DNA of 64,000 bases, taken from NCBI RefSeq assembly GCF_056746865.1, contig NZ_CM163382.1; one strand, 5' to 3'. Shown here piece by piece: positions 1,428 to 47,311 of the stretch. Both the position numbers and the translations under genes were made by a program. A model generated the notes under the pieces. The model had not been told where the DNA came from. It saw nothing but the letters and a program-made list of their open reading frames with translations, and searched no databases. The stretch's first letter is position 1, and each line of letters begins with the position of its first letter.

Positions 1428-2699
<1,272 letters not shown>

Positions 2700-2750: not shown

Positions 2751-3465
2751 TGCACAGAAAACCCCCAGCTAGGCTGGGGGTTCCGGAAAGCTTTCAGCTT
2801 TGAGCCAGTTATTAAAACCCCTTTTGATTTGTTAAAACACCTTGCGGTCTGGCAACTGCAAGTGTCAAACAAGAAATCAAAAGGGGGTCCCAATGGGGAA
2901 CGAAAAGAGCTTAGCGCACACCCGATGGAACTGTAAATATCACATAGTTTTTGCGCCAAAATACCGAAGACAGGTGTTCTACAGAGAGAAGCGTAGAGCA
3001 ATAGGCAGTATTTTGAGAAAGCTGTGTGAGTGGAAAAGCGTACGGATTCTGGAAGCTGAATGCTGTGCAGATCATATCCATATGCTTGTGGAGATCCCGC
3101 CTAAAATGAGCGTATCCGGGTTTATGGGATATCTGAAAGGGAAAAGCAGTCTGATGCTTTACGAGCAGTTTGGTGATTTGAAATTCAAATACAGGAACAG
3201 GGAGTTCTGGTGCAGAGGGTACTACGTCGATACAGTGGGTAAGAACACGGCGAAGATACAGGATTACATAAAGCACCAGCTTGAAGAGGATAAAATGGGA
3301 GAGCAGTTATCGATTCCCTATCCGGGCAGCCCGTTTACGGGCCGTAAGTAACGAAGTTGGATGCAAATGTCAGATCGTGTGCGCCTGTTAGGGCGCGGCT
3401 GGTAAGAGAGCCTTATAGGCGCATTTGAAAAACCTCCGGCTATGCCGGAGGATATTTATTTAGTT
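2751..3465 (+). mobile_element. IS200-type element (IS200/IS605 family); ends approximate
   Basis: About 710 bp extra DNA between fabF and pabC; perfect 8-bp/3-nt-loop hairpins near both ends (2762-2780 and 3433-3451); RBS-sequestering stem-loop (2818-2886) just before the tnpA start. Confidence 0.7.
2893..3351 (+). CDS. tnpA: IS200 transposase TnpA (Y1 HUH type, 152 aa)
   Basis: Product MGNEKSLAHTRWNCKYHIVFAPKYRR...HIHMLVEIPP... matches the recalled IS200 TnpA sequence; HUH motif (HIH) present. Confidence 0.9.
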   Translation: MGNEKSLAHTRWNCKYHIVFAPKYRRQVFYREKRRAIGSILRKLCEWKSVRILEAECCADHIHMLVEIPPKMSVSGFMGYLKGKSSLMLYEQFGDLKFKYRNREFWCRGYYVDTVGKNTAKIQDYIKHQLEEDKMGEQLSIPYPGSPFTGRK

Positions 3466-3530: not shown

Positions 3531-4340
3531 ATGTTCTTAATTAACGGTCATAAGCAGGAATCGCTGGCAGTAAGCGATCGGGCAACGCAGTTTGGTGATG
3601 GTTGTTTTACCACCGCCAGAGTTATCGACGGTAAAGTCAGTTTGTTATCGGCGCATATCCAGCGACTACAGGATGCTTGTCAGCGGTTGATGATTTCCTG
3701 TGACTTCTGGCCTCAGCTTGAACAAGAGATGAAAACGCTGGCAGCAGAACAGCAAAATGGTGTACTGAAAGTCGTGATCAGTCGCGGTAGTGGCGGGCGA
3801 GGGTACAGCACATTGAACAGTGGACCGGCAACGCGGATTCTCTCCGTTACGGCTTATCCTGCACATTACGACCGTTTGCGTAACGAAGGGATGACGTTGG
3901 CGCTAAGCCCGGTGCGGCTGGGGCGCAATCCTCATCTTGCAGGTATTAAACATCTTAATCGGCTTGAGCAAGTATTGATCCGCTCTCATCTTGAGCAGAC
4001 AAACGCTGATGAGGCGCTGGTCCTTGACAGCGAAGGGTGGGTTACGGAATGCTGTGCGGCTAATTTGTTCTGGCGGAAGGGCAACGTAGTTTATACGCCG
4101 CGACTGGATCAGGCAGGTGTTAACGGCATTATGCGACAATTCTGTATCCGTTTGCTGGCACAATCCTCTTATCAGCTTGTCGAAGTGCAAGCCTCTCTGG
4201 AAGAGGCGTTGCAGGCAGATGAGATGGTTATTTGTAATGCGTTAATGCCAGTGATGCCCGTACGTGCCTGTGGCGATGTCTCCTTTTCGTCAGCAACGTT
4301 ATATGAATATTTAGCCCCACTTTGTGAGCGCCCGAATTAG
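3531..4340 (+). CDS. pabC: aminodeoxychorismate lyase
   Basis: 269-aa ORF in the conserved fabF-pabC-mltG position; class IV aminotransferase-like product. Confidence 0.9.
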
Positions 4341-35450: not shown

Positions 35451-37889
35451 TTAAAAATCAGCCTGACTCGGGATCAGTTTTTGCCAGATAACTGAAACGT
35501 ATTTTGCCTGGTAACGGGCGTCATCAAGTGCATTATGGCGCTCACCTTCGAATGGAATAGCCGTTCTGGCATCGAAGTCTATGGCTTTCCCCAGCTCAAC
35601 GATTGTGCGTACATCTCGATCGTTGTAGTAACGCCACGGGCAGGGGATCCCCTGCCGTTCGTATGAACGGCGCAAAATCGTGTTGTCGAAGTTGGCTCCA
35701 TTTCCCCAGACCTGAACAAAAAATTCACCGGAGTTTTCGTCGATAAATTCCCGCAATTGTAACAGTGCATCATCTAACGGGATTTCATCGGTCATAATGG
35801 CAGATTGCGCTTCGCGTGATTGCTTAAGCCACCATTTAATGGTGTCCCGATCAATGACCCCGCCAGCAGTTTCCAGATCGATAGTCTTACTAAATTCCGG
35901 TCCCATATCTCCGGTTTGCGGATCGAAAAATATTGCACCTATTGAGATGATCGGGGCATCAGGATTTTTTCCCATGGTTTCAAGGTCGATCATTAGATGG
36001 TCACACGTCCTGCTGGTGGATGTGATAACGTGATGACCGTTCACCGTAATTAAGGGATCTGCCGTCTCGCCAGTTTCACTATCGCTGGCGTGATCCTGAG
36101 CGCTGCCAGCATTCTCCTTGTGTGGATGTTCAGCGCCTTCCATTTCCTTCGGATCATTTTCCTGAACTTCAACCTGATTCTCTTCATCGAATGTTTCCTG
36201 GTATGTTGCGTCGCCCATCACCGCGCCACAATCAGGGCAGTTGCCGCCGCCGGTCTGACCGCAGGCGGTGCAGATCTTTTCCGGTTCCTGTTGCACTACT
36301 GGTTCAGGTTGTTTCGTTTCTGGCTCGTTTTGTAACGCATTTGGGCTGTTTTGTTCCGCTTTCTGGTCGTTCTGTTCCGATTCTTGCTGGTTCTGGTTTA
36401 CAGAATCGCGGGTTTCAATCCCCTTTACCCATTTCGGATCATTCGGGTCGCTAATCCCTGCAACAAATTCTCCGCGAGAGGCAGCAAGCAACTTATCGGC
36501 GTCAGGCTGGCTGATATTGGCTGCCTGCATAATTTTGTTTACTTCGTCAGCGGTAACTTTTACCTGTGACTTGTCATCCAGCGGCTGCGGGTCCTGATGA
36601 TGTTCAACTGTATCCGCTGCCATTGTTTCAGCCGTTGCCTGTTCATCTGCCATTGCGCCAGATGGTTGCGGGTTATCTTCATCATTTTTTTCTTCTTCTG
36701 TTTTGCACTCAGCAGCCAGTCCGCCGTTAATTTCTTCCAGGATATCTTTTTCCGGTGTATGCCGGGCAGCCATGAGCGTTTCAGCTGTGGGATTCTCGTG
36801 ATCAGTTTCTGTCAGGTTGGCATTGATATACCCCTGAAGGCGCCCCGGGTAGTGATAAAACTCAGGGTGGGCGCTTCGGATAAGTGCAAAAATAGCTGCG
36901 CGGGAATAGTCCAGGATACCAGGGGTTGCGCGAAGTGCTGCGGACCATTCCCTGAACGGACTTTCTTTTTTCAGGACGATTTCTTTTGCGCGACGATAAA
37001 CGCTGCCCGGAATTTCATAAATATTAAAATCCATCGGAAGTGTGGCTGCTGCAATCTCCACATCCAGCGCATCGAAGGTGTGTACTAAATTCGGATTGCG
37101 ATCGGTTTTGTTCCCGCCACCGGCATTTGCACCGGAAGCCGTACGGGTGATACGCGAAACACGATTTCCTTTCATCCACTCTTTTGTCAGCAGACCCCGA
37201 TCAGTGTAATCAGCGTCCAGGTATGCCTCGAAAAAAGCAGTTATCAGTCCCAGGTCTGAATTACCGGGATTAGGGAAAACTTTGTCAGTGTCGCGTACCA
37301 GTTTGTGAAGGTCGCGAATCTCCAGCGGGTCGAGCAGCTTTGTTTTGTGAGAAATGGCCAGGGCAGTAACAGCCGGCAGTTCTTCCGCCCGTGCTATATG
37401 TAATGCCTGAAGTTCTTCCCGTGCAACGTGCGTTACTGGTTTTTCGCTGCTGTGTTGCGCAAGCCAGCGAATGGGCAGCTCCTGACCAGAAACCGGCAGG
37501 AGCATATTCTCCTCAATCTCCGTCATGTCTTCGCCGTTGACGTTGGTATTGTCAGTACTGGCTGGTTTCTCCTGCACGGAGGGAGAGGGCGCGATAAATA
37601 CCATTGTAATGCCATCTTCCCCGCCTTTTTCGTATCGGTTGCAGAATTCGGTATCAAACACGCCTTCAGGTGGAAGGTCATTCACAACGGGTAAATGGAC
37701 GCGAACGGGTTTTTTAAAGTCGTCTTCATCATAATCGTTGTCATCCATTGCGGTAATGCAGCGGGAGATGGCAACAGATAATTTTTTTGCTGTAGTCCAG
37801 TAAAAACCACCTTTAATTCCCAGACGTTTTCTGACTTTGTCATTTTTTGCTTCGCAATATAGCGCAAATTCTTCTTTATCAGTGCTCAT
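35451..37889 (-). CDS. large phage protein with C-terminal DnaQ-like (DEDDh) 3'-5' exonuclease domain
   Basis: 812 aa; C-terminal Exo I (MIDLETMG), Exo II (WGNGANFD) and Exo III (HNALDDARY) motifs; central acidic linker with Cys4 cluster [16 protein letters not shown]. Confidence 0.8.
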
Positions 37890-37981: not shown

Positions 37982-38170
37982 TTATCCAGCCGGTGTTTCG
38001 TTATTCAGGTACAGCGATACTTTTTTTACCGGGAGGCATTCACCAGAAATTTTTTGCTCGTCTCTTGCCTGGAGGCAGGATTCTTTACTGGCATAAATTC
38101 CGGTAATCACATTCTGTGATTCACCCGTTATAAGAAAAACCGTCATCATCAGTGCAAATGCTGAAGTCAT
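37982..38170 (-). CDS. hypothetical small protein with hydrophobic N-terminus
   Basis: 62-aa ORF whose start overlaps the stop of the upstream 62-aa ORF (ATGA). Confidence 0.35.
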   Translation of the reverse strand: MTSAFALMMTVFLITGESQNVITGIYASKESCLQARDEQKISGECLPVKKVSLYLNNETPAG

Positions 38171-38355
38171 TGACGCTCTCCGAAAATACCAAGTTCAAGA
38201 AGAGCAATTCGGGAAAGTATGGAATTATCATTGAGCAGATAAGGCTCATATTTCCTCATATTAATGGCATCTTCAGTAAACTCCCGGTTACTGAGCAGAA
38301 CACCAATATCAAAACAACCTTCAGACGTATTAACGTTTGGTAATAACGTTTCCAT
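38167..38355 (-). CDS. hypothetical small protein
   Basis: 62-aa ORF with GAGGA 7 nt upstream of ATG; first gene of a coupled pair. Confidence 0.35.
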   Translation of the reverse strand: METLLPNVNTSEGCFDIGVLLSNREFTEDAINMRKYEPYLLNDNSILSRIALLELGIFGERQ

Positions 38356-38895
38356 TATCGCGTCCTCAACAATGAATTTTGTGATGCAGTGCCTGGTGCC
38401 TCCAGGTGACGTTAACCAGTTAACAATTAACGCCGGGTTAGTTGATGCTCGTTACGCCAGTAAAAGACCGCCTTACTGCTTTAACTGTTCCGCGTGCGCA
38501 TAGCCGCATTCACCGCATCACAAAATTCACTTTAAAAAGGGCGGCAGAGCAGTCACGGAGTAAAACTGATACCGCCAAACGTCACCAGAAAATTGATAAC
38601 AGAGGGCGTTGCAGCGGGGTTGTCACTTAAGCGTATGGTCAACCTGACAACCCGGTGTCCTCAACGGGGAAGGAATAACCCCGTCATACTTACCGCCGCG
38701 CCATTTCGCGGAGTGTCACAACCGGAAGCGCACGGTCGACGAAAATTTAACGACAGGCTATCTATGAACCAGCTACCTCGCCGTGCGCTTTCGCGTTATG
38801 GTCTGACTTTTCATGGAAATATCCTTTCAGTAAACTGTCAGTGCCGGATTCTTATCCGTGTCCGGCGCACGCACTCTACCTCACCTGTGAATAAA

Positions 38896-39270
38896 TTAAT
38901 GATTAATTGATATTTTGTTGTTTGATTCAACTTTCCCATCGGATGTGTGATGCTTTAAATCACAGGAATTAATACTGCTTGCTGTAAAATGATTTTCAAG
39001 GGGAGCTATTCGAATCCCTTTCTTTTTCATTAACAAGCCAAATCCTTTATTAATGATGTCCATTAATTCCAGAAAGTATTTTTCATGTAAATCCTGGTTA
39101 TCAGAGAGCTGCTTCTCTTCGTACAGCCCGATAAAGGCTCGGCGTACGTTACCGGATATATTGTCGATGGTTTCTTTTTCTACGGTACTCAGGTCAAGAG
39201 TCGCCAGTTGAGAGCGAACCACATTCGCTGCCATTTCCTGGAATGGCATTGGTAAATCTTTAAATTCCAT
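38896..39270 (-). CDS. hypothetical early-left protein (AT-rich gene)
   Basis: 124-aa ORF in a leftward gene string downstream of the OL region. Confidence 0.45.
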   Translation of the reverse strand: MEFKDLPMPFQEMAANVVRSQLATLDLSTVEKETIDNISGNVRRAFIGLYEEKQLSDNQDLHEKYFLELMDIINKGFGLLMKKKGIRIAPLENHFTASSINSCDLKHHTSDGKVESNNKISINH

Positions 39271-39292
39271 TATTAGCCTCGTTGGTTAGCTA

Positions 39293-39511
39293 TTAACGCG
39301 GGTATGTAATCATTCTGGCAATGCTTAATGCCGCTGCTTTTTCCAGCCTGGTGATATCCTGCTCCAGAGCGGACAGATTTTCAGCCTGCTTAGCCCTGGC
39401 TTCATTGGCCCATTTCAGGTCCTGCGCAGCCTTAATTTTCTGGTGTATCCACTCATAAAGTTCATCATCGGTATAGTCTGGCGCGATGATGACGGGTTCT
39501 CGTTTCTGCAT
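39293..39511 (-). CDS. hypothetical coiled-coil small protein
   Basis: 72-aa ORF, leftward early region. Confidence 0.45.
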   Translation of the reverse strand: MQKREPVIIAPDYTDDELYEWIHQKIKAAQDLKWANEARAKQAENLSALEQDITRLEKAAALSIARMITYPR

Positions 39512-39540
39512 ACTGATTCCTCGCGGTGCTGTTTCGCTTA

Positions 39541-39669
39541 TCAGCCGTTAGATTTTGCCGAACTGGAAAGCGCCTGTTTAAACTCACTGAAGCTGAGGGC
39601 TTCTTCGCCTTCGGCAAGGCCTTCGAAGTATTCTTCGTAAGCCTTTTCCATGATTGTGTTGAAATCCAT
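39541..39669 (-). CDS. hypothetical 42-aa acidic protein
   Basis: ORF MDFNTIMEKAYEEYFEGLAEGEEALSFSEFKQALSSSAKSNG found by manual translation; below the track's 60-aa cutoff. Confidence 0.3.
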   Translation of the reverse strand: MDFNTIMEKAYEEYFEGLAEGEEALSFSEFKQALSSSAKSNG

Positions 39670-39670
39670 A

Positions 39671-39907
39671 TCACTCACCTGAGTTTCTTTCCAGCCAGCG
39701 ACGGGCACCATTTTCGGTTTTAAACGTTTTGCTTTTGGTATACGTCATCGCGGTGAACGTACCGTCCTGGTTGGGGAACACGCCACATACCAGAGATTCG
39801 CTGTTGCCAAGATCGATAGTATCCATGCTGACCTCATTTCCCCTTAACGCCGGGGTAGCGGAACAAAAACCTGCTGCATAGTTATTAAAGTTGAACCCTG
39901 CCGTCAT
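39671..39907 (-). CDS. hypothetical early-left protein
   Basis: 78-aa ORF; true start may be the internal Met (MDTIDLG...). Confidence 0.4.
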   Translation of the reverse strand: MTAGFNFNNYAAGFCSATPALRGNEVSMDTIDLGNSESLVCGVFPNQDGTFTAMTYTKSKTFKTENGARRWLERNSGE

Positions 39908-40010
39908 GTTCTTACGCCTCGGGCTGGCTACTTAACCCCTGACCACTGCCGGGTAACTCGAAGTATTTCCCTGCGTTCTGTGGGGCGGGGTGGGTTGGTA
40001 TGTTGTTAAT

Positions 40011-40024
40011 GTAACAAGAGTTAC
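40011..40024. promoter_or_regulatory. candidate left operator (OL) site
   Basis: GTAACAAGAGTTAC matches the GTAAC-N4-GTTAC dyad also found twice in the cI-cro intergenic region. Confidence 0.5.
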
Positions 40025-40062
40025 CTTTCGAGTCAATACAATGTTGCAAAAGGTACATTTGA

Positions 40063-40093
40063 GGGCATAAAAAACCCGCAATGAATGCGGGTT
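40063..40093 (-). terminator. intrinsic terminator immediately downstream of cI
   Basis: Hairpin aacccgca-atgaa-tgcgggtt with U-run on the minus-strand transcript, 5 nt after the cI stop. Confidence 0.6.
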
Positions 40094-40098
40094 CTGAC

Positions 40099-40773
40099 TC
40101 AGTCTAAGTATTGATGTATTTGTGAAACTTTACCTTTAATGGTGTAACCACCATTCAGTTCGATGGGTTTGTAAAGCGGATTCAGTGACAACAAATAGAT
40201 GTTTGGTCCGTCAATCGCAACTTTTTTTAGTGTTACGTTTGGCGTTCCTTCCAATTGGATTAAGATTATTTTTCCCACCAGTTCTCTAATGTTACTTGAG
40301 CATGGTGTGATCAGCACGGTAGATCCGTCGGGGATGGTTGGGAGGCCGTTAGAGTTTGTCATCGCATCTCCCTCAACATGCAATAAAAAAGAGTTTTCAG
40401 CGGTTTTTGTCATGACATCAACCCAGTTATTAATACCAGGAATCTTGGTTACTGGACAACTCATATCCCAATAACCAGCCTGTTCCCACGTTAAAACGGG
40501 CAACCGGGCGATGTTGTCACTAATGTAAGGGTACTGATTCAGACGCAGATCATCGGTTTTATCGTGACAGTCCTTTCCATAAAGAATCCATTCAGGAGAT
40601 TTGGAAAGCAATTTTGACAGTAGATACAAATTCTCACCGTCAGGTTTTGAAGAGCCATTTTCCCATTTTGTTACGGATACACGAGATATGCCGATTGCTT
40701 TCGCAACCTGCTGTTGGGTTAATCCAACGTCTTTTCGACGATTCCGAATACGTTCGCTGATAGTGTTTTTCAT
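40099..40773 (-). CDS. cI: CI-type prophage repressor (N-terminal HTH plus C-terminal S24 LexA-like peptidase)
   Basis: HTH LTQQQVAKAIGISRVSVTKWENG; S24 domain with catalytic GDAM serine context and a downstream Lys; start trimmed to MKNTISER... leaving a 91-bp operator region before cro. Confidence 0.85.
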   Translation of the reverse strand: MKNTISERIRNRRKDVGLTQQQVAKAIGISRVSVTKWENGSSKPDGENLYLLSKLLSKSPEWILYGKDCHDKTDDLRLNQYPYISDNIARLPVLTWEQAGYWDMSCPVTKIPGINNWVDVMTKTAENSFLLHVEGDAMTNSNGLPTIPDGSTVLITPCSSNIRELVGKIILIQLEGTPNVTLKKVAIDGPNIYLLSLNPLYKPIELNGGYTIKGKVSQIHQYLD

Positions 40774-40835
40774 GTAACCAATGTTACTACCAAGTGATGT
40801 TGCTATGGTTGACATTGTTATGTAACTATTGTTAC
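40774..40835. promoter_or_regulatory. right operator region (OR) with two dyad sites between cI and cro
   Basis: GTAACCAATGTTAC (40774-40787) and GTAACTATTGTTAC (40822-40835); consensus -35 TTGACA at 40809-40814. Confidence 0.55.
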
Positions 40836-40864
40836 CCTTCTGCTCGAAATAACAGGAGAGTTTT

Positions 40865-41080
40865 ATGTTCAAAGATGATGTTCTGCGCTATTTCAAAAAA
40901 AAGCGACTAGTAGCTGAGGCTCTTGGAATTTCACATGTGGCTGTTGTGCGGTGGAAAGCAGTTATTCCCAAACTTCGCGCAATGGAACTGGATGAAATTA
41001 CTAACGGTGAATTGAAATACAACCCAGAACTTTACAAGAAGCAGGATAGCACCTCGAACGAAGGAAAGAATGATTCATGA
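40865..41080 (+). CDS. cro: Cro-like HTH regulator
   Basis: 71-aa ORF divergent from cI across the operator region; HTH AEALGISHVAVVRW. Confidence 0.7.
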   Translation: MFKDDVLRYFKKKRLVAEALGISHVAVVRWKAVIPKLRAMELDEITNGELKYNPELYKKQDSTSNEGKNDS

Positions 41081-46897: not shown

Positions 46898-47155
46898 ATA
46901 CAGCGAACGCCATTGGTTTAGTTGGATATTTACTGTGCCGGACAAAAACGGTTTGCGGGGAAATCTTAGTTAAGTAGAATGACTGCGGGTGCTTGAGGCT
47001 ATCTGTCTCAGGCATGAACACCAAAAGGCAGATAGAGAAAAGCCCCAGTTAACATTACGCGTCCTGCAAGACGCTTAACATTAATCTGAGGCCATATCTA
47101 TGCGACACATAGAGATTAGCCTCTTACGGACCGAAAGGTCAAGGAGAAGCAGGCT

Positions 47156-47311
47156 ATGAAGCAGCAAAAGGCGATGTTAATCGCCCTGATCGTCATCTGT
47201 TTAACCGTCATAGTGACGGCACTGGTAACGAGGAAAGACCTCTGCGAGGTACGAATCCGAACCGGCCAGACGGAGGTCGCTGTCTTCACAGCTTACGAAC
47301 CTGAGGAGTAA
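47156..47311 (+). CDS. hok: Hok/Gef-family type I toxin (51 aa)
   Basis: MKQQKAMLIALIVICLTVIVTALVTRKDLCEVRIRTGQTEVAVFTAYEPEE matches the recalled HokD/RelF sequence; short overlapping upstream ORF 47100-47159 (mok-like); 3' stem-loop 47319-47340. Confidence 0.8.
   Translation: MKQQKAMLIALIVICLTVIVTALVTRKDLCEVRIRTGQTEVAVFTAYEPEE

What the first reader, a model, noticed from the sequence alone, without database searches (positions are those of the whole stretch)
37982..38895. Coupled small-gene pair followed by ~540 bp of structured non-coding DNA with tandem GTTAAC palindromes
Two 62-aa ORFs overlap by ATGA (38355-37982, minus strand). Upstream of them lies about 540 bp without a convincing ORF on either strand, containing GTTAAC-CA-GTTAAC (38410-38423) and several inverted repeats (for example GGGTTGTCA...TGACAACCC around 38617-38655 and GCCGGA...TCCGGC around 38841-38868). 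This could be an operator/promoter for the gene pair, a regulatory RNA, or a small toxin-antitoxin-like cassette.
Basis: seen in the sequence. Interest (0 to 1): 0.35.

Follow-up and report, generated by a model that had tools for sequence, protein, structure and literature searches.

The report
Prophage dicF-dicB-ydfD cell-division module
This stretch is the well-known prophage cassette that makes the small RNA DicF and the small proteins DicB and YdfD, which stop bacterial cell division and cause lysis; the "non-coding" DNA is the folded RNA precursor from which DicF is cut, so the finding is ordinary apart from one under-described RNA fold in the spacer.

Summary
On the minus strand, 37982-38895 is the distal part of a dicBF operon like that of E. 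coli K-12 prophage Qin. It consists of a pre-DicF leader, the sRNA DicF (38539-38591; Rfam 76.7 bits, gathering score 48), a 183-nt spacer, dicB (38167-38355; Pfam 125 bits) and a ydfD-like DUF1482 gene (37982-38170) joined to dicB by ATGA. The 540-nt "non-coding" block is about 97% identical to the K-12 ydfC-dicB interval and is better conserved than the two genes. Its inverted repeats are RNA helices. Two long helices sit where the published RNase III ends of the 190-nt and 72-nt DicF species fall. The "tandem GTTAAC" is one hairpin: one copy lies in the loop and one in the 3' arm. The stem covaries in Rac-type and Klebsiella phages. The loop pairs with an upstream CAGUUAA to form a pseudoknot. 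This spacer fold is a sub-threshold relative of the prophage sRNA STnc100/PasD. It also precedes kilR and P1/P7 tciA, which I did not find described. Verdict: regulatory RNA supported, promoter/operator not supported, toxin-antitoxin only loosely. Interest is low.

The parts
37982..38170 (-). ydfD-like gene (DUF1482, 62 aa). Its start codon overlaps the dicB stop (ATGA).
   Evidence: Pfam PF07358, 56.3 bits against a cutoff of 25. 45% identical to K-12 YdfD. phrog_1092. RefSeq annotates it as a DUF1482 family protein.
38167..38355 (-). dicB, cell-division inhibitor (62 aa).
   Evidence: Pfam PF05358, 125.5 bits. NCBIfam NF049927, 114 bits against a cutoff of 100. 63% identical to K-12 DicB. 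RefSeq annotates it as dicB.
38363..38367 (-). Shine-Dalgarno sequence GAGGA of dicB, 7 nt before the ATG and 3 nt after the 3' arm of the long spacer helix.
   Evidence: Read from the sequence.
38371..38533 (-). Structured dicF-dicB spacer, an STnc100-like fold. Closing helix 38511-38533 with 38371-38391 (about 21 bp). P2 hairpin 38492-38507. Pseudoknot 5' strand CAGUUAA 38481-38487. Variable hairpin 38458-38478. P3 hairpin 38408-38434, loop 38416-38426, holding both GTTAAC copies. P4 hairpin 38392-38406.
   Evidence: MFE fold. Rfam RF02076 at 30.5 bits, below its gathering score of 47; 33-44 bits in 10 homologous spacers. On alignment A4, 91.4% of cells are paired against 72% in shuffles, and 23 of 34 pairs change on both sides. 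Pseudoknot permutation test. Coordinates.
38539..38591 (-). DicF sRNA (53 nt): single-stranded 5' seed plus Rho-independent terminator (stem 38566-38576 with 38540-38552, then UUUUU).
   Evidence: Rfam RF00039, 76.7 bits against a gathering score of 48, E = 3e-16. Identical to K-12 dicF b1574.
38580..38601 (-). Hairpin UGUUAUCA / UGGUGACG that pairs the DicF 5' seed with the preceding leader. The A/U-rich loop holds the position of the mature DicF 5' end (RNase E site in K-12).
   Evidence: RNAalifold consensus on 28 variants; changes are one-sided and wobble-compatible. The RNase E role comes from PMC10448788.
38608..38722 (-). Closed three-hairpin pre-DicF domain. Closing helix GUUGUGAC (38715-38722) with GCUGCAAC (38608-38615).
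   Evidence: RNAalifold. Almost invariant in 100 contigs. The same domain occurs in the P1 ban leader and in Stx2c phages, followed by a different terminator.
38723..38793 (-). Long helix (38778-38793 with 38723-38739, about 15 bp plus bulges, variable apical part): candidate RNase III site that gives the 190-nt pre-DicF 5' end.
   Evidence: Inverted repeat I1. MFE and alifold. 38539 + 189 = 38728 lies in the 3' arm. The 190-nt RNase III product is reported in PMC10448788.
38803..38880 (-). Homology to K-12 begins just after the stop codon of the upstream gene.
   Evidence: MFE. Alignment to K-12. This part is less conserved and is replaced in some contigs.
38896..39826 (-). Upstream genes of the same operon: 124-aa ORF (38896-39270, absent in K-12), ydfC (39293-39511), ydfB (39541-39669) and a ydfA-like DUF1391 gene (39671-39826).
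   Evidence: RefSeq annotation of an identical genome. PHROG matches.
40008..40036 (-). PL-like promoter candidate (TTGACT, 17 nt, TACATT, with TG), inferred to be the equivalent of dicBp. It lies downstream of the CI-like repressor gene 40099-40872.
   Evidence: Consensus scan only. Position relative to repressor and operon. Function is inferred.

Best explanation
The region is the distal half of a dicBF operon in a Qin/Rac-type lambdoid prophage of E. coli. It is transcribed leftwards (minus strand) from a repressor-controlled PL-like promoter about 1.4 kb upstream. The 540-nt 'non-coding' block is transcribed as part of the polycistronic RNA and folds into two processing modules. In module 1 (38592-38880), a long helix is cut by RNase III to give the 190-nt pre-DicF. 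RNase E then cuts in the A/U-rich loop just before the seed, releasing the 53-nt DicF, which ends at its own intrinsic terminator. With Hfq, DicF base-pairs with ftsZ and other mRNAs and blocks their translation. Module 2 (38371-38533) matters when polymerase reads through the DicF terminator. It is a pseudoknotted fold closed by a roughly 21-bp helix. RNase III cuts this helix, giving the 72-nt DicF 3' end, and so separates DicF from the dicB-ydfD message a few nucleotides before the dicB ribosome-binding site. dicB and ydfD are then translated as a coupled pair (ATGA). DicB recruits MinC to block FtsZ rings and also blocks ManYZ-dependent phage entry. YdfD causes lysis by inhibiting IspG, and this lysis is suppressed while DicB holds division. 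Shown here: the identities of the parts, their conservation, and covariation of the folds. Taken from K-12 literature: the enzymes, RNA sizes and protein functions. Inferred: that the two helices are the RNase III sites, and that the promoter at 40008-40036 drives the operon.
For: DicF scores 76.7 bits (gathering score 48) at 38539-38590 and is identical to K-12 dicF. DicB matches Pfam at 125.5 bits and NCBIfam at 114 bits; the second ORF matches DUF1482 at 56.3 bits. RefSeq annotation of 100%-identical genomes gives the same gene order as Qin, running ydfA-like, ydfB, ydfC, [124 aa], dicB, DUF1482, exonuclease, xis, int. The non-coding block is near-identical to K-12. Among 100 distinct DicF-bearing viral contigs it is 0.92-1.00 conserved, against 0.41-0.62 for the 3' half of dicB. 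Published RNA ends map inside the two predicted long helices: 38728 for the 190-nt species and 38520 for the 72-nt species. The spacer fold is supported by covariation: 91.4% of cells paired against 72% in shuffles and about 38% in slid controls, and 23 of 34 pairs change on both sides. YdfD/DicB biology is from PMC8835842; DicF/DicB biology from PMC10448788 and PMC5069750.
Against: There are no expression data for this strain. DicB is only 63% and the YdfD-like protein only 45% identical to the K-12 proteins, so their activities are inferred. The RNase III sites are placed from published RNA lengths, not from mapped coordinates. The paper's 'positions 813/814' could not be converted to my coordinates. 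The leader is so invariant that its helices show almost no two-sided compensatory changes. The three-hairpin domain alone is no more stable than shuffles (z = -0.7). An extra 124-aa gene lies between ydfC and dicF compared with K-12.
Confidence: 0.95

Rival explanations
1. The palindromes (GTTAAC-CA-GTTAAC and the other inverted repeats) are DNA operators or an internal promoter region that controls the dicB-ydfD pair directly.
For: The GTTAAC pair is invariant in 100 DicF-bearing contigs. Ragunathan et al. cite one older study that suggested a promoter upstream of dicB.
Against: No sigma-70-like match lies on the minus strand in 38356-38895. In K-12, primer extension and Northern blots found only processing ends and no internal promoter. 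In Rac-type and Klebsiella phages the second GTTAAC is replaced (UUGCAG, CUGCCG, CUGGUA), and the opposite arm changes to keep pairing. That is the signature of an RNA stem, not of a protein-binding half-site.
Confidence: 0.04
2. The two overlapping 62-aa genes are a toxin-antitoxin pair, with the upstream DNA as their autoregulated operator.
For: The genes are small and translationally coupled. Both are toxic when overexpressed, and DicB prevents YdfD lysis in K-12. Balasubramanian et al. themselves draw the analogy with TA systems.
Against: Neither protein matches a TA or defence family in Pfam, NCBIfam or PADLOC. The pair has no promoter of its own. DicB's protective effect is also produced by SulA, so it acts through division arrest and not by binding YdfD. 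The upstream gene product, DicB, is itself a growth inhibitor.
Confidence: 0.03
3. The dicF-dicB spacer is an independent trans-acting sRNA gene of the STnc100/PasD type, with its own expression, and not a cis part of the dicB message.
For: The spacer shares its fold with STnc100, and STnc100/PasD are Hfq-associated prophage sRNAs. The window carries a canonical STnc100 copy at 51650-51854 (133.5 bits). RNase III cuts in the closing helix could release a piece of about 150 nt.
Against: Unlike canonical STnc100, which has a TTGACT promoter and a GC hairpin with a U-tract, the spacer has no promoter-like site and no terminator before dicB. It always abuts the ribosome-binding site of a downstream gene. 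It scores below the Rfam gathering score (30.5 against 47).
Confidence: 0.2
4. The block hides a small protein gene, for example the 105-aa plus-strand ORF 38593-38910 or short minus-strand ORFs. Some phage records annotate 'hypothetical protein' here.
For: ORFs of 62-105 aa exist on the plus strand. Several phage records annotate hypothetical proteins over this stretch.
Against: The 105-aa ORF has no Pfam match. It starts with TTG and lies antisense to the operon. Common variants carry a 1-nt insertion (CCCC to CCCCC) and a replaced hairpin inside it, either of which would shift the frame. RefSeq/PGAP annotates nothing there. Minus-strand ORFs are at most 33 aa and overlap DicF.
Confidence: 0.02

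Closest known systems
dicBF operon of cryptic prophage Qin, E. coli K-12 (ydfABC-dicF-dicB-ydfDE)
   Same: The gene order and strand logic are the same. DicF is identical, and the leader and spacer are about 97% identical. dicB and ydfD overlap by ATGA, and exonuclease, xis and int lie downstream.
   Different: DicB is 63% and YdfD 45% identical. An extra 124-aa gene lies between ydfC and dicF. A roughly 45-nt island in the spacer (38430-38480) is replaced. The repressor has a LexA-like S24 domain, whereas DicA lacks the RecA-cleavage site according to PMC10448788. The exonuclease, xis and int genes are intact, not IS-disrupted pseudogenes.
kilS-kilR region of Rac-type prophages
   Same: The architecture is the same: an sRNA ending in a DicF-like terminator, then the same spacer fold, then a small FtsZ-directed division inhibitor. 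The spacer is almost identical except for compensated changes in the P3 stem.
   Different: The sRNA seed differs; KilS scores only 39-41 bits on the DicF model. The downstream gene, kilR, is unrelated to dicB. The upstream three-hairpin domain is not conserved.
STnc100 (Rfam RF02076) / PasD prophage sRNAs
   Same: They share a four-helix fold: the closing stem ..GGUG/CACC.., a P2 hairpin with a bulged A, a P3 hairpin whose loop pairs with an upstream strand, and the P4 hairpin CCNGG-AGGCA-CCNGG.
   Different: The spacer scores 30.5 bits against a gathering score of 47. It has no promoter or terminator of its own. Its closing stem is extended to about 21 bp. It lies inside an mRNA directly before a ribosome-binding site. 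Canonical copies are stand-alone genes in the late region, such as 51650-51854 in this window.
P1/P7/D6 ban-operon leader ('dicF-like region') and the tciA upstream region
   Same: P1 carries the three-hairpin pre-DicF domain just after Pban, and the STnc100-like fold directly before tciA/terB.
   Different: In P1 the two modules are about 1.3 kb apart, separated by tRNA genes. The hairpin domain is followed by a different terminator and has no DicF seed.
RNase III site in the lambda N leader (from general knowledge, not tested here)
   Same: It works alike: a long helix in the early-left transcript lies just upstream of the ribosome-binding site of a small regulatory gene and is cut by RNase III.
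   Different: I saw no sequence relationship. An effect on dicB translation has not been tested.

Membership tests
DicF RNA (Rfam RF00039) | Covariance-model score at or above the gathering score (48 bits) over the full 52-nt model | tested here: met
   76.7 bits, model positions 1-52, E = 3e-16.
DicF RNA (Rfam RF00039) | Same 5' seed and terminator sequence as the characterised K-12 DicF | tested here: met
   53 of 53 nt identical to b1574.
DicF RNA (Rfam RF00039) | Located in a dicBF-type operon, between ydfC and dicB | tested here: met
   Gene order from RefSeq annotation of an identical genome and from K-12. One extra ORF is intercalated.
DicF RNA (Rfam RF00039) | [quoted passage not shown] | not testable with these tools
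   Known for K-12 only.
DicB (Pfam PF05358 / NCBIfam NF049927) | Profile score above the curated cutoffs over the whole 62-aa protein | tested here: met
   125.5 bits (cutoff 27) and 114.2 bits (cutoff 100).
DicB (Pfam PF05358 / NCBIfam NF049927) | MinC-dependent inhibition of FtsZ ring formation | not testable with these tools
   63% identity to K-12 DicB, with the C-terminal third divergent.
YdfD / DUF1482 (Pfam PF07358) | Profile score above the cutoff; about 62 aa; located directly after dicB and overlapping it | tested here: met
   56.3 bits (cutoff 25); ATGA overlap.
YdfD / DUF1482 (Pfam PF07358) | Lysis on expression; binding to IspG | not testable with these tools
   Only 45% identical to K-12 YdfD. 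Function is from PMC8835842.
STnc100 (Rfam RF02076), for the spacer 38371-38533 | Covariance-model score at or above the gathering score (47 bits) | tested here: not met
   30.5 bits in the window; 33-44 bits in 10 homologous spacers.
STnc100 (Rfam RF02076), for the spacer 38371-38533 | Shared secondary structure maintained by compensatory changes across spacers and canonical STnc100 | tested here: met
   91.4% of cells paired; 23 of 34 pairs change on both sides; 0 of 500 shuffles reach the observed values; slid controls about 38%.
STnc100 (Rfam RF02076), for the spacer 38371-38533 | Stand-alone gene with its own promoter and Rho-independent terminator | tested here: not met
   No promoter-like or terminator-like site lies between DicF and dicB on the minus strand. 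Canonical copies have both.
Type II toxin-antitoxin pair | Toxin and antitoxin domains of known TA families; own autoregulated promoter | tested here: not met
   No TA or defence family hit in Pfam, NCBIfam or PADLOC. No promoter-like site.
Type II toxin-antitoxin pair | Direct neutralising contact between the two proteins | not testable with these tools
   The literature attributes DicB's protection to division arrest, which SulA also provides.

The most novel reading that the evidence does not exclude
The 183-nt dicF-dicB spacer is not a passive linker. It is a pseudoknotted RNA of the STnc100/PasD superfamily that has been built into the early-left operon. It is closed by a roughly 21-bp RNase III helix and acts as a portable 5' control or processing module for unrelated cell-division inhibitor genes: dicB in Qin-type phages, kilR in Rac-type phages, and tciA/terB in P1, P7 and D6. 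The fold and its spread are well supported here. The function is inferred; candidates are gating of translation or stability of the toxic gene, or release of a stable RNA. I found no paper that links STnc100/PasD to dicB or kilR or that mentions the pseudoknot. My literature access is partial, and the 1990-1996 Bouche papers could not be read.
Probability: 0.3. Interest if true: 0.45.

Novelty: already known. Interest (0 to 1): 0.2.

Why it matters
As a finding it matters little. dicF, dicB and ydfD have been studied since the late 1980s, and this DNA is present in most sequenced E. coli (4728 of 5426 complete genomes have a match). Two points have some value. First, this copy sits in a prophage that looks intact and SOS-inducible: it has a LexA-like repressor and intact int, xis and exonuclease genes. 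It could therefore show what the cassette does for a live phage, as opposed to a cryptic one. Second, the spacer fold ties the function-unknown STnc100/PasD sRNAs to the leaders of three unrelated division-inhibitor genes. That gives a concrete, testable handle on what this widespread prophage RNA fold does.

Tried and rejected
1. Hidden coding potential. ORFs of at least 20 aa were listed on both strands. The 105-aa plus-strand ORF has no Pfam match, and common 1-nt indels in homologues break it. Rejected.
2. Internal promoter or terminator. The consensus scan found none on the minus strand inside the block other than the DicF terminator, which its stem/loop limits did not report.
3. Toxin-antitoxin or defence system. 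The PADLOC, Pfam and NCBIfam scans were negative.
4. GTTAAC as a conserved DNA dyad. Rejected, because the second copy is replaced with compensation in Rac-type and Klebsiella phages.
5. Palindromic loop as an RNA dimerisation (kissing) site. Unlikely, because other subfamilies have non-palindromic loops that each match their own upstream strand.
6. The three-hairpin pre-DicF domain as an RNA antiterminator like HK022 put. It lies directly before a terminator in Qin-type phages, in the P1 ban leader and in Stx2c phages, which suggested the idea. HK022 putL shares only the 9-mer GCGCGGCGG and has a different fold. The idea is unsupported and is left as speculation.
7. Reading Faubladier and Bouche 1994. 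The paper is not held.
8. Converting the published RNase III position '813/814' to window coordinates. The numbering system is not given in the text, so the sites were placed from RNA lengths only.
9. Single-sequence shuffle tests of the pseudoknot. They were uninformative when G-U pairs were allowed. A cross-lineage permutation with Watson-Crick pairs only was used in their place.

Full report
**Observation.**
Two 62-aa ORFs lie on the minus strand at 38167-38355 and 37982-38170 and overlap by ATGA. GTTAAC occurs twice, at 38411-38416 and 38419-38424, one base off the stated coordinates. GGGTTGTCA/TGACAACCC is a perfect 9-nt inverted repeat at 38617-38653. GCCGGA/TCCGGC lies at 38843-38866. 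No minus-strand ORF longer than 33 aa lies in 38356-38895. The 540 nt fold better than shuffled sequence on either strand (z about -3.5).

**Identity.**
A scan against Rfam places the sRNA DicF at 38539-38590 on the minus strand, with 76.7 bits against a gathering score of 48.
- The upstream ORF is DicB: Pfam PF05358 at 125.5 bits and NCBIfam at 114 bits.
- The downstream ORF is a DUF1482 protein, the family of K-12 YdfD, at 56.3 bits.
- The 1061-nt query has matches in 4728 of 5426 complete E. coli genomes. Identical copies are annotated 'DUF1482 family protein | dicB'.

The annotated neighbourhood of an identical genome runs, all on one strand: LexA-family repressor, DUF1391 (ydfA-like), ydfB, ydfC, a 124-aa hypothetical, [dicF], dicB, DUF1482, exonuclease, excisionase, integrase. 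This is the order of the dicBF operon of prophage Qin in K-12. Aligned to K-12, the 'non-coding' block is nearly identical from just after the upstream stop codon to the dicB start. The exception is a roughly 45-nt island in the spacer. The two proteins are only 63% and 45% identical.

Among 100 distinct DicF-bearing viral contigs the same pattern holds. The leader from about -130 through DicF to +100, and the segment from +160 to +220, are 0.92-1.00 conserved. The 3' half of dicB is 0.41-0.62 conserved. The non-coding DNA is therefore the most constrained part of the locus.

**What the non-coding block is.**
Published work on K-12 shows the following. The operon is transcribed from dicBp, upstream of ydfA. 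RNase III produces a 190-nt DicF precursor. RNase E produces the 53-nt DicF. The 3' end is made either by the DicF terminator or, on read-through transcripts, by RNase III, which gives a 72-nt form. Primer extension and Northern blots found no evidence for an internal promoter (PMC10448788; PMC5069750).

The minimum-energy fold and an RNAalifold consensus of 28 variants give, in transcript order:
2. A long helix, 38778-38793 with 38723-38739.
4. A hairpin, 38580-38601, that pairs the DicF seed with the preceding leader.
5. The DicF terminator.

Counting 190 nt back from the DicF 3' end gives 38728, inside the 3' arm of the long helix. This fits an RNase III site. It is an inference from length, not a mapped end, and I could not convert the paper's own numbering. 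The leader is so invariant that its pairs show mostly one-sided, wobble-compatible changes and very little true covariation.

**The spacer and the GTTAAC pair.**
After the DicF terminator the RNA forms a helix of about 21 bp, 38511-38533 with 38371-38391. This helix ends 3 nt before the dicB Shine-Dalgarno sequence. Nucleotide 72 of DicF (38520) falls in the middle of its 5' arm, where RNase III would be expected to cut.

Inside the helix lies a compact fold that Rfam matches to the prophage sRNA STnc100, but below threshold (30.5 bits against 47). The same sub-threshold match, at 33-44 bits, recurs in ten homologous regions: K-12 Qin, K-12 Rac, Rac-SA53, Shigella phage 75/02, phage 666R9, P1, P7, D6 and two Klebsiella phages.

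The 'tandem GTTAAC' is a single hairpin, GGCGUUAA-UUGUUAACUGG-UUAACGUC (38408-38434). One GTTAAC lies in the loop and the other forms most of the 3' arm.
- The stem covaries: GACUGUAA/UUGCAGUC in Rac, GGCGGUAG/CUGCCGUC and GAUACCAG/CUGGUAUC in Klebsiella phages. The loop stays fixed.
- The loop sequence UUAACUG is complementary to CAGUUAA at 38481-38487, about 45 nt upstream. This makes a pseudoknot.
- In other subfamilies the loop and the upstream strand change together: AUAACCA/UGGUUAU in P1, then UGCUGAU/AUCAGCA, CAACCUU/AAGGUUG, and UGGCUGGA/UCCAGCCA against UGACUGGG/UCCAGUCA.

In a permutation test, loops were swapped among 19 distinct lineages. This gave a mean Watson-Crick run of 4.21 +/- 0.20, against 5.63 observed; none of 1000 permutations reached the observed value.

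I then aligned 23 representatives spanning spacers and canonical STnc100. On the five-helix structure, 91.4% of cells are paired, against 72% in column shuffles and about 38% when partners are slid. Both sides change in 23 of 34 pairs. Every helix, including the pseudoknot, shows two-sided changes. The palindromes are therefore RNA structure, not DNA operators.

**Where else the spacer occurs.**
The same spacer sits directly in front of kilR in Rac-type phages. There the sRNA KilS (PMC8175672) occupies the DicF position and is a diverged DicF relative, at 39-41 bits on the DicF model. The spacer also sits in front of tciA/terB in P1, P7 and D6. Recombinants exist that join DicF and the spacer to kilR.

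Canonical STnc100 is a stand-alone gene with a TTGACT promoter and a GC-rich terminator. This very window carries one at 51650-51854, scoring 133.5 bits. Papers on STnc100/PasD treat them as Hfq-associated prophage sRNAs of unknown function. They mention neither dicB or kilR nor a pseudoknot. The three-hairpin pre-DicF domain is also mobile. In the P1 ban-operon leader and in Stx2c phages it is followed by a different terminator hairpin and has no DicF seed.

**Mechanism.**
The best-supported account is the K-12 one, transferred to this locus. After the CI-like repressor is lost, the early-left transcript is made. RNase III and RNase E release DicF, which represses ftsZ and other targets together with Hfq. 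Read-through transcripts are cut by RNase III in the spacer helix, and dicB-ydfD is translated as a coupled pair. DicB blocks division through MinC and blocks ManYZ-dependent phage entry. YdfD causes lysis by inhibiting IspG, and this lysis is suppressed while division is blocked.
- Shown here: identities, synteny, conservation and structural covariation.
- Taken from the literature: the enzymes, RNA sizes and protein activities.
- Inferred: the assignment of the two helices as the RNase III sites, the promoter at 40008-40036, and any regulatory role of the spacer fold.

**Rivals.**
- An internal promoter or operator is contradicted by the promoter scan, by the K-12 experiments and by the covariation.
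- A toxin-antitoxin pair is contradicted by the absence of any TA or defence domain and of a promoter of its own. The reported protection is indirect, because SulA has the same effect.
- A hidden protein gene is contradicted by frameshifting indels in homologues and by the lack of any family match.
- The spacer might be a separately acting sRNA. This remains open, at about 0.2.

**Verdict.**
The object is already known, so interest is low. The one thing I did not find in the literature is the status of the dicF-dicB spacer as a pseudoknotted STnc100-like module. It is shared by the leaders of three unrelated division-inhibitor genes.

Noticed in passing
window 51650-51854 (+): A canonical STnc100 sRNA gene (Rfam 133.5 bits) with its own TTGACT promoter and a GC-rich terminator. 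It lies right after an IS3-family insertion sequence (50251-51524) and before a 658-aa ORF (52461-54437). The same prophage therefore carries both the stand-alone form and the operon-embedded form of this fold.
   Followed up: partly
L133 (K-12 Rac) 2406-2503 (-); L127 1990-2044; L131 1951-2006: The sRNA KilS upstream of kilR matches the DicF model below threshold (39-41 bits). It aligns with DicF through the terminator hairpin and flanks but has a different 5' seed. It looks like a DicF paralogue in the same operon position.
   Followed up: partly
L003 (P1) 2501-2654 and 3842-3961; L125 (P7) 2001-2116; L132 (D6) 2001-2121: P1-family phages carry the three-hairpin pre-DicF domain immediately after the C1-controlled Pban promoter, followed by a different terminator. 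They carry the STnc100-like fold directly upstream of tciA/terB. In P1 the two modules are separated by tRNA genes.
   Followed up: partly
window 38896-39270 (-): A 124-aa ORF (phrog_6937, unknown function, no Pfam family) lies between ydfC and the pre-DicF leader and is absent from K-12 Qin. Homology to K-12 resumes exactly at its stop codon, which marks a mosaic joint.
   Followed up: partly
window 35451-37889 (-): An 812-aa 'exonuclease' combines an Exonuc_VIII N-terminal region (residues 57-189) with a C-terminal Rv2179c-like 3'-5' exoribonuclease domain (residues 631-802). It lacks the usual RecE nuclease domain.
   Followed up: no
window 40099-40872 (-), 40066-40100 and 40008-40036: The repressor has a DicA-like HTH (78.8 bits, below cutoff) fused to a LexA/S24-like C-terminal domain, which suggests SOS-cleavability. 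A terminator-like hairpin (weak Trp_leader match) and a PL-like promoter candidate follow it.
   Followed up: no
window 46987-47158 (+) and 2760-2883 (+): A sok antisense RNA (106.7 bits), implying a hok/sok module in the prophage, and STnc490 (146.4 bits) near the start of the window.
   Followed up: no
L172 434-1418; L164 2715-3078; L165 2776-4211; L196 4404-4907: Some viral contigs carry two or three STnc100-type elements within 0.3-1.4 kb of each other. Each has a different P3 loop and a different pseudoknot partner.
   Followed up: no
L025 7169-7700; L089, L100, L102: Recombinant arrangements in which DicF and the spacer are followed by kilR, or by a Rha-like gene, in place of dicB. The exchange point is at the 3' edge of the spacer helix.
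   Followed up: partly
H38, Aeromonas phage AP1 (MT713136.1) 249906-250142: A 254-kb Aeromonas phage record matches DicF plus the spacer at 88.7% identity. This is an unexpected host for this enterobacterial module and may reflect contamination or a recent transfer.
   Followed up: no
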